NCBI GenBank assembly: GCA_016699975.1
Contig: CP064994.1
Location: forward strand, 430,731-494,730
Source of the DNA: Candidatus Moraniibacteriota bacterium
Lineage (GTDB): Bacteria > Patescibacteriota > Minisyncoccia > Moranbacterales > UBA1568
Length of the DNA stretch: 64,000 bases
Direction: 5' to 3'
Shown: piece by piece, positions 19,245 to 20,948 of the stretch
How positions within the stretch are numbered: the first letter of the stretch is position 1
How the letters are laid out: each line of letters begins with the position of its first letter
The notes under the pieces: generated by a model
Databases searched by the model: none
Told to the model about the DNA's origin: nothing
What the model saw: only the letters and a program-made list of their open reading frames with translations
Program-made: the position numbers and the translations under genes

Positions 19245-20948
<1,704 letters not shown>

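What the first reader, a model, noticed from the sequence alone, without database searches (positions are those of the whole stretch)
19857..19859. In-frame TAA in groEL replacing a conserved glutamate
GroEL (19293..20948) is intact and highly conserved, but the codon for the Glu in the ...ELxVVEGMxFDRGY... segment is TAA (reads ...[19 protein letters not shown]...), in the same frame on both sides. There is no frameshift, unlike the other disruptions in this window. TAA is used as a normal terminator by neighbouring genes (e.g. groEL itself, PGI/PMI), so stop-codon reassignment is unlikely. The likely explanations are a G-to-T consensus/sequencing error in GAA, a recent nonsense mutation with a second chaperonin elsewhere, or strain heterogeneity. 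groEL is normally essential, so a genuine nonsense allele would be remarkable.
Basis: partly seen in the sequence, partly recalled or inferred. Interest (0 to 1): 0.55.

Follow-up and report, generated by a model that had tools for sequence, protein, structure and literature searches.

The report
Sequence-error stop codon in groEL
The stop codon inside the chaperonin gene groEL is really in this sequence. It is almost certainly one of many small consensus errors private to this assembly, because the one other assembly of the same organism that spans the site reads a normal glutamate codon there.

Summary
TAA at 19857-19859 lies in frame in an otherwise intact 551-codon groEL, at the position of E. 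coli Glu191, next to hinge Gly192.

It is not a biological feature.
- A Logan short-read-run assembly contig of the same organism (SRR11674037, 99.95% identical over 13 kb) has GAA and an intact 551-aa GroEL. Two relatives at about 80% nucleotide identity have GAG.
- Sister contigs from six samples cover 45.6 kb of the window. Against them the window carries about 14 private 1-2 nt indel events, most of them in homopolymer runs.
- These indels break ValRS (twice), TsaD, a GH5 cellulase, a pilin-like gene, a 312-aa gene and a transposase. All are intact where sister contigs span them.
- FtsW and its upstream gene also carry homopolymer-run frameshifts, shown by alignment to homologues.
- The window's private substitutions are mostly non-synonymous (9 of 10) and rich in transversions. 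Differences on the sister side are about half synonymous and mostly transitions.
- At the private substitution rate, about 0.8 nonsense changes are expected per 64 kb.
- TAA is the commonest true terminator here (17 of 32 genes), so recoding is excluded.

Verdict: consensus error in an error-prone assembly whose error pattern resembles uncorrected long reads. The organism is a Candidatus Moraniibacteriota (CPR) bacterium. Interest is low.

The parts
19293..20948 (+). groEL (Cpn60), 551 codons plus its own TAA terminator. It is intact apart from the single internal TAA.
   Evidence: It is identical to the intact 551-aa GroEL of Logan contig SRR11674037_95666 (P0001) except at codon 189. The two DNA differences are at 19857 and 20051.
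19857..19859 (+). In-frame TAA at codon 189, equivalent to E. coli Glu191. Base 19857 is T here, G (GAA) in the sister contig and G (GAG) in two relatives.
20051..20051 (+). Second window-private G>T in groEL (GTG>GTT, synonymous Val253). It lies in the same 8-mer GTGGAAGG as the TAA change. Two independent samples have G.
18823..18828 (+). Intergenic homopolymer upstream of groEL: T6 in the window, T5 in the sister contig.
16392..16392 (-). Window-private substitution in phosphoglucomutase (Gly199>Val). The sister contig and the outgroup both have Gly.
3641..3645 (+). T5 run where FtsW changes frame. Adding one T restores a 406-codon continuous reading frame (2626 onward) carrying the conserved ...[26 protein letters not shown]... 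motif. No sister contig covers this site.
38585..38587 (+). T3 in the window against T4 in the sister contig. It splits a 312-aa gene into 107-aa and 205-aa ORFs.
43483..43487 (+). C5 in the window against C6 in two samples. It splits a 479-aa pilin-like gene into 155-aa and 393-aa ORFs.
   Evidence: The correction was predicted before the sister contigs were seen.
55020..55027 (-). T8 in the window against T7 in two samples, in the N-terminal part of ValRS. A second run at 52254-52260 (T7 against T6) shifts the C-terminus. ValRS is 949 aa in the sister contig and a 925-aa ORF here.
55686..55702 (-). Garbled stretch in TsaD: one extra base, one substitution and one missing base within 17 nt, against two samples that agree with each other.
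57228..57232 (-). T5 (A5 on the coding strand) in the window against T4 in two samples. It splits the GH5 cellulase. A further extra G at 57789 also shifts the frame. The gene is an intact 539 aa in L087 and L088.
61284..61289 (+). A6 in the window against A5 in sister contigs. It splits the IS630-type DDE_3 transposase, which is an intact 344 aa in L089.

Best explanation
The TAA is a single-base consensus error (true base G, codon GAA = Glu) in an error-prone assembly. The organism, a Candidatus Moraniibacteriota (CPR/Patescibacteria) bacterium, makes an ordinary full-length GroEL. The assembly behind this window has a residual error rate of roughly 1 per 1.5-2 kb. It is dominated by homopolymer-length miscalls plus scattered substitutions, which is typical of incompletely polished long-read (or other homopolymer-prone) data. 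One of those substitutions turned GAA into TAA. Shown: the base differs from an independent assembly, and the window is full of private, gene-breaking differences that other assemblies lack. Inferred: that the private differences are technical rather than biological, and which sequencing platform was used.
For: (1) Logan contig SRR11674037_95666 is 99.95% identical over 13.2 kb. It has G at 19857 and encodes an intact 551-aa GroEL. Relatives CP064989.1 and SRR12901034_7855 have GAG. (2) Sister contigs from six samples cover 45.6 kb of the window: SRR11674037, SRR15021097, SRR12767646, ERZ27239125, SRR32934939 and ERZ28614324. In the 23.4 kb covered by at least 2 samples there are 8 window-private indel events, against 1 on the sister side (Fisher p = 0.017). 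(3) Most of the private indels lie in runs of 3-8 identical bases. They break ValRS (twice), TsaD, the GH5 cellulase (twice), a pilin-like gene, a 312-aa gene and a transposase, all intact in the sister contigs that span them. FtsW and the gene upstream of it have frameshifts of the same kind, shown by homologue alignment. (4) Window-private coding substitutions are 9 of 10 non-synonymous, including the nonsense change. Other differences are 8 of 18 non-synonymous (p = 0.04). Transitions to transversions are 4:7 for private changes and 14:2 for sister-side changes (p = 0.011). So the private changes look unselected. (5) About 0.8 nonsense changes are expected per window at this private substitution rate. 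(6) groEL shows no other decay: the only other change is synonymous, and it is also window-private (two samples have G). (7) Long-read assemblies are known to acquire frameshifts and premature stops that pseudogenize genes (PMC12007338).
Against: No reads are available, so the base call cannot be checked directly. Only one independent contig spans 19857. Contigs from five other samples all start between 19971 and 21381. Real strain-level polymorphism exists in this population, so a real variant cannot be formally excluded. G>T is not the classic long-read error type. The two groEL changes share the 8-mer GTGGAAGG, which is unexplained.
Confidence: 0.87

Rival explanations
1. A genuine, very recent nonsense mutation, or a minority allele captured in the consensus, in one strain of the population. 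It might be tolerated because a second chaperonin exists elsewhere or because the cells carrying it are dying.
For: The sampled populations do differ by real substitutions at about 0.03-0.3%. G:C>T:A changes are also seen on the sister side, at 14867 and 41344. groEL here is not coupled to a neighbouring groES, so chaperonin biology in this clade may be atypical.
Against: The allele is absent from the only other assembly that spans the site. It sits in a sequence whose other private changes break ValRS, TsaD and FtsW, so the private changes as a class cannot be biological. There is no relaxed-selection signal in groEL. No second groEL or thermosome is found in the 64-kb window (Pfam scans of its larger ORFs).
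Confidence: 0.1
2. A functional split GroEL. Translation stops at codon 189 and restarts at the ATG three bases downstream (TAAGGAATG). This would give an N-terminal equatorial/intermediate fragment and a C-terminal fragment that starts exactly at the apical-domain hinge, and the two would assemble non-covalently.
For: The geometry is suggestive. The stop replaces the residue equivalent to E. coli Glu191, next to hinge Gly192 (the hinge assignment is from textbook GroEL structure). An ATG (conserved Met193) follows 3 nt after the stop and opens a 361-codon ORF.
Against: The ATG is simply the conserved Gly-Met of the E-G-M motif, so the geometry comes free with any GAA>TAA change at this codon. 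There is no usable Shine-Dalgarno spacing: AAGGA abuts the ATG. A 99.95%-identical sister contig has the unsplit gene. No contig with TAA at this codon was found in the JGI metagenome collection, though that scan had no positive control and is weak. None of the 120 closest homologues listed is split.
Confidence: 0.02
3. Recoding: TAA is read as an amino acid, through code reassignment or a suppressor tRNA, or is read through.
For: Some CPR lineages and phages use altered codes. This is established knowledge: UGA=Gly in Gracilibacteria and Absconditabacteria.
Against: TAA terminates 17 of 32 Pfam-supported genes at positions matching the profile ends. groEL itself ends in TAA. Of all same-frame ORF pairs separated by one stop, only groEL lies inside a single family match. 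The TAAs at 2602 and 47302 are gene ends. None of the six tRNAs in the window has a stop-reading anticodon.
Confidence: 0.01

Closest known systems
Gene-fragmenting consensus errors in long-read (or other homopolymer-prone) assemblies
   Same: There are 1-2 nt length errors, mostly in homopolymer runs, plus scattered substitutions. They produce apparent frameshifts and premature stops in genes that are intact in short-read assemblies of the same organism (described in PMC12007338).
   Different: The platform of this assembly is unknown. The particular lesion is a G>T substitution rather than an indel.
E. coli groEL44 (GroEL E191G), a temperature-sensitive allele
   Same: The same residue position (Glu191). 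The allele is described in PMC11978752.
   Different: groEL44 is a missense allele that leaves a full-length protein. Here the codon reads as a stop, and the change is most probably not real.
Stop-codon reassignment in CPR bacteria (genetic code 25) and in phages
   Same: The host lineage is a CPR bacterium, and there is an in-frame stop in a conserved gene.
   Different: Code 25 reassigns TGA, not TAA. All three stop codons terminate genes normally in this window.

Membership tests
GroEL / Cpn60 (group I chaperonin) | Full-length match to the Cpn60_TCP1 family and to annotated GroEL proteins | tested here: met
   Pfam PF00118 matches both halves. There is 100% identity to the intact 551-aa P0001, apart from the stop at codon 189, and 92-93% to proteins annotated as chaperonin GroEL of Candidatus Moraniibacteriota.
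GroEL / Cpn60 (group I chaperonin) | Gly-Met-rich C-terminal tail | tested here: met
   The protein ends ...[15 protein letters not shown].
GroEL / Cpn60 (group I chaperonin) | Operon partner groES directly upstream | tested here: not met
   There is no GroES-like sequence in the window (tblastn), nor within 10 kb in relative CP064989.1. More distant Patescibacteria loci do have it directly upstream. This is a clade property shared with the intact sister and relatives. It is not linked to the TAA.
Assembly or consensus artefact | The variant is absent from independent assemblies of the same organism | tested here: met
   G at this base in SRR11674037_95666. Only one contig spans the site.
Assembly or consensus artefact | The same sequence carries other private, gene-breaking differences with a technical signature (homopolymer-length changes), where independent assemblies agree with each other | tested here: met
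   About 14 private indel events in 45.6 kb. In doubly covered sequence there are 8 private against 1 sister-side. Genes are intact in sister contigs.
Assembly or consensus artefact | Private substitutions look unselected: non-synonymous fraction near random, no transition bias | tested here: met
   9 of 10 non-synonymous against 8 of 18. Transitions to transversions 4:7 against 14:2. The numbers are small (p = 0.01-0.04).
Assembly or consensus artefact | Raw reads contradict the consensus base | not testable with these tools
   No reads are available.
Stop-codon reassignment (TAA sense codon) | TAA is not used as a terminator, and in-frame TAAs recur in conserved genes | tested here: not met
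   17 of 32 genes end in TAA. There is no other in-frame TAA inside a family match.
Stop-codon reassignment (TAA sense codon) | A cognate suppressor tRNA (anticodon UUA) | tested here: inconclusive
   None among the 6 tRNAs of the window. The rest of the genome was not available.

The most novel reading that the evidence does not exclude
The TAA is real in this strain, and GroEL is made as two polypeptides by termination and re-initiation at the adjacent ATG. The protein would be split exactly at the intermediate/apical hinge, in a CPR clade whose groEL has also lost its neighbouring groES.
Probability: 0.02. Interest if true: 0.75.

Novelty: not a real feature. Interest (0 to 1): 0.06.

Why it matters
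As biology it does not matter: the organism almost certainly has a normal groEL. It matters as quality control. This window, and presumably the whole source assembly, carries about one error per 1.5-2 kb. Those errors create false pseudogenes in essential genes (groEL, valS, tsaD, ftsW). Any other finding from this window that rests on a frameshift, a split gene, a premature stop or a single-residue change should be discounted unless it is confirmed in the sister contigs identified here.

Tried and rejected
(1) Exact-protein look-ups of the two groEL fragments found nothing. So this TAA allele is not on record in the public assemblies.

(2) Look-ups of TsaD, TopA and the solute-binding protein also failed. 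For TsaD and the solute-binding protein, later sister alignments showed window-private changes inside the gene. TopA is not covered by any sister contig, so its failure is unexplained.

(3) A scan of JGI metagenome contigs for the exact site with N at the variable base gave 0 hits. A degenerate pattern requiring TAA at this codon also gave 0 hits. The organism seems absent from that collection, so these nulls are weak.

The source genome was not identified. 

(5) A search for near-identical FtsW and cellulase with frameshift-corrected sequences found only 54-59% relatives. The cellulase frameshift was later confirmed as window-private through neighbouring-gene look-ups. The FtsW region (1-4945) remains uncovered by sister contigs.

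(6) The candidate second in-frame TAAs at 2602 and 47302 turned out to be ordinary gene ends.

(7) I looked for a degraded groES or the relatives' 130-aa ORF between ychF and groEL. Neither is present.

(8) I tested for a motif-wide systematic error at GTGGAAGG. Two other copies are unchanged, so it is not universal.

(9) A literature search for SRR11674037 found nothing.

Full report
**1. The observation**

Window 19293..20948 (+) encodes a 551-residue GroEL. A single TAA at 19857-19859 interrupts it, with the same frame on both sides. Pfam Cpn60_TCP1 matches both halves.

I aligned the protein with E. coli GroEL and the 120 closest database homologues. The stop occupies the column of E. coli Glu191, directly before the invariant Gly-Met of the VVEGM motif. 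That column reads E in 92 sequences, M in 20, K in 7, D in 1 and Q in 1. All relatives above about 80% identity have E.

Position 191 is the site of the classical temperature-sensitive allele groEL44, E191G (PMC11978752). From textbook GroEL structure, it sits at the intermediate/apical hinge.

**2. The organism and its surroundings**

- The window carries the 3' part of 23S rRNA, a 5S rRNA and six tRNAs.
- It also carries a compact set of housekeeping and type IV pilus genes.
- The closest GroEL proteins, at 92-93% identity, are annotated as Candidatus Moraniibacteriota. One comes from a complete 1.09-Mb genome, CP064989.1. The source is therefore a CPR/Patescibacteria bacterium.
- groEL follows ychF after a 530-nt spacer with no ORF. 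There is no groES in the window, nor within 10 kb of groEL in CP064989.1. More distant Patescibacteria have groES directly upstream.

**3. The same site in other assemblies**

An exact-protein look-up of the neighbouring YchF found Logan contig SRR11674037_95666. This contig is 99.95% identical to window 11437..24605 and encodes an intact 551-aa GroEL. At 19857 it has G, giving GAA (Glu).

The two relatives with about 80% nucleotide identity have GAG. So the window's T is the derived state.

The only other groEL difference is at 20051, GTT in the window against GTG, which is synonymous. A second sample (SRR15021097, L096) also has G there, so this difference is window-private too.

**4. The character of the window sequence as a whole**

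Further look-ups recovered sister contigs from six samples: SRR11674037, SRR15021097, SRR12767646, ERZ27239125, SRR32934939 and ERZ28614324. They are 99.7-100% identical to the window. Together they cover 45.6 kb of it, of which 23.4 kb is covered by at least two samples.

Against these contigs the window has about 14 private 1-2 nt indel events. Most lie in runs of 3-8 identical bases:

| Position | Window against sisters | Effect |
|---|---|---|
| 5279 | one G missing from a G run | intergenic |
| 7248 | one A missing from an A run | intergenic |
| 7266-7267 | two extra T in a T run | intergenic |
| 18828 | T6 against T5 | intergenic, upstream of groEL |
| 38587 | T3 against T4 | splits a 312-aa gene |
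| 43487 | C5 against C6 | splits a 479-aa pilin-like gene |
| 52260 | T7 against T6 | shifts the ValRS C-terminus |
| 55027 | T8 against T7 | shifts the ValRS N-terminus |
| 55686 and 55702 | one extra base and one missing base, with a substitution at 55690, within 17 nt | local shift in TsaD |
| 57228 | T5 against T4 | splits the GH5 cellulase |
| 57789 | one extra G | shifts the cellulase N-terminus |
| 61289 | A6 against A5 | splits the IS630-type transposase |

Where two or more samples cover a site, they agree with each other against the window. In doubly covered sequence there are 8 window-private indel events and only 1 on the sister side.

The indels break ValRS (two sites), TsaD, the GH5 cellulase (two sites), the pilin-like gene, the 312-aa gene and the transposase. 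All of these are intact ORFs in the sister contigs that span them. I had predicted the C5-to-C6 and A5-to-A4 corrections from the reading frames alone, before the sister contigs were retrieved.

Two more frameshifts of the same kind lie in sequence that no sister contig covers. Homologue alignments show them. One is in FtsW at the T5 run 3641-3645. The other is in the gene upstream of FtsW, at a C4/G4 run near 2190.

An organism cannot live with valS, tsaD and ftsW all frameshifted. These private differences are therefore technical.

**5. The private substitutions behave like noise**

| Class of difference | Synonymous : non-synonymous | Transitions : transversions |
|---|---|---|
| Window-private, polarised by at least two samples or by a sister plus an outgroup | 1 : 9 | 4 : 7 |
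| Sister-private or single-sister differences | 10 : 8 | not computed for this set |
| Sister-private differences only | not computed for this set | 14 : 2 |

- The nine non-synonymous private changes are GroEL E189*, PGM G199V, MazG-like V44F, ValRS K>Q, TsaD L>R, GH5 V>I and R>Q, SecG S>C and the solute-binding protein G>A.
- The synonymous-to-non-synonymous contrast gives p = 0.04.
- The transition-to-transversion contrast gives p = 0.011.
- With this gene set's codon usage, 3.8% of random coding substitutions create a stop. At the private substitution rate of 9 per 23.4 kb, about 0.8 nonsense codons are expected in 64 kb.

One in-frame stop is what this error level predicts.

**6. Alternatives**

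*Recoding.* This is excluded. TAA terminates 17 of 32 Pfam-supported genes, including groEL itself. Among all same-frame ORF pairs separated by a single stop, only groEL lies within one family match. The candidates at 2602 and 47302 are ordinary gene ends. None of the six tRNAs in the window has a stop-reading anticodon.

*A functional split GroEL.* Termination and re-initiation at the ATG 3 nt downstream is a tempting idea, because the break falls at the apical-domain boundary. But that ATG is just the conserved Met of E-G-M, and the AAGGA abuts the ATG with no spacer. The unsplit gene exists in a 99.95%-identical genome.

*A genuine recent nonsense allele.* This cannot be excluded without reads, since only one other contig spans the site. 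It would have to be the one biological change among a class of private changes that are demonstrably artefactual.

**7. Unexplained details**

- Both private substitutions in groEL are G>T within the same 8-mer, GTGGAAGG, on the same strand and 194 nt apart. Those were the only two copies of that 8-mer in the 24.5 kb of sister sequence examined at the time. Two other copies elsewhere in the window are unchanged. This suggests a context-dependent miscall, but I could not test that.
- Contigs from five other samples all begin inside or just after groEL, at window 19971-21381.

**8. Comparison with what is known, and verdict**

The gene itself is an ordinary member of the GroEL family. The stop codon is not a real feature of the organism (confidence about 0.87). 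Interest is low.

The practical value of this work is the warning that every frameshift, split gene or premature stop in this window needs checking against the sister contigs listed here.

Noticed in passing
window 18762-19292; L082 9367-10000; L006-L019: groEL has no neighbouring groES in the window or in the closest Moraniibacteriota-like relatives checked (CP064989.1/L082, L083 and L002-L005). More distant Patescibacteria loci have groES immediately upstream. Relatives carry an unrelated 130-aa ORF in this spacer that is absent from the window.
   Followed up: partly
window 19854-19861 and 20049-20056: The two window-private G>T changes in groEL both fall in the 8-mer GTGGAAGG, giving GTGTAAGG and GTTGAAGG. 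Copies at 24084 (+) and 57405 (-) are unchanged. This may be a context-specific miscall.
   Followed up: partly
window 56268-57822 (-): A GH5 cellulase, 539 aa when intact in sister contigs. Its named homologues at 40-59% identity are from Bacteroidota (Maribacter, Fibrella, Sporocytophaga), and most other hits are unnamed metagenome proteins. This is a candidate horizontal acquisition by a CPR bacterium.
   Followed up: no
window 61018-62053; L089 1-3069: An IS630-type DDE_3 transposase. Its apparent frameshift is the A6/A5 artefact at 61289. Contig L089 matches the window only up to about 62077 and then continues into different genes (sortase, BrkB-like). That indicates a structural polymorphism at the insertion sequence. 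L090 carries a copy of the element that is only about 88% identical over the transposase region.
   Followed up: partly
window 55686-55702 (-), tsaD: One extra base, one substitution and one missing base within 17 nt, around a CCTGG. The result is a local out-of-frame patch of about 5 codons in TsaD. Two other samples agree on the undisturbed sequence.
   Followed up: yes
window 1773-3850 (+): In relative protein P0170, an N-terminal domain of about 280 aa is fused to FtsW. In the window the two are separate genes in the same frame, 1773..2604 and about 2719..3850. Each carries its own homopolymer-run frameshift.
   Followed up: partly
window 19281-20684 (-): A 467-aa ORF antisense to groEL. 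It overlaps the well-supported groEL gene throughout and is probably not a gene.
   Followed up: no
window 19971-21381: Contigs from five independent samples (L094-L098) all start inside or just downstream of groEL. Assembly graphs apparently break here repeatedly. The cause is unknown.
   Followed up: no
window 50678-53900: There are 20 substitutions against the SRR15021097 contig L087. They are mostly synonymous transitions and are concentrated in 50.7-52.4 kb. This looks like genuine strain divergence or a recombination tract, unlike the window-private changes.
   Followed up: partly
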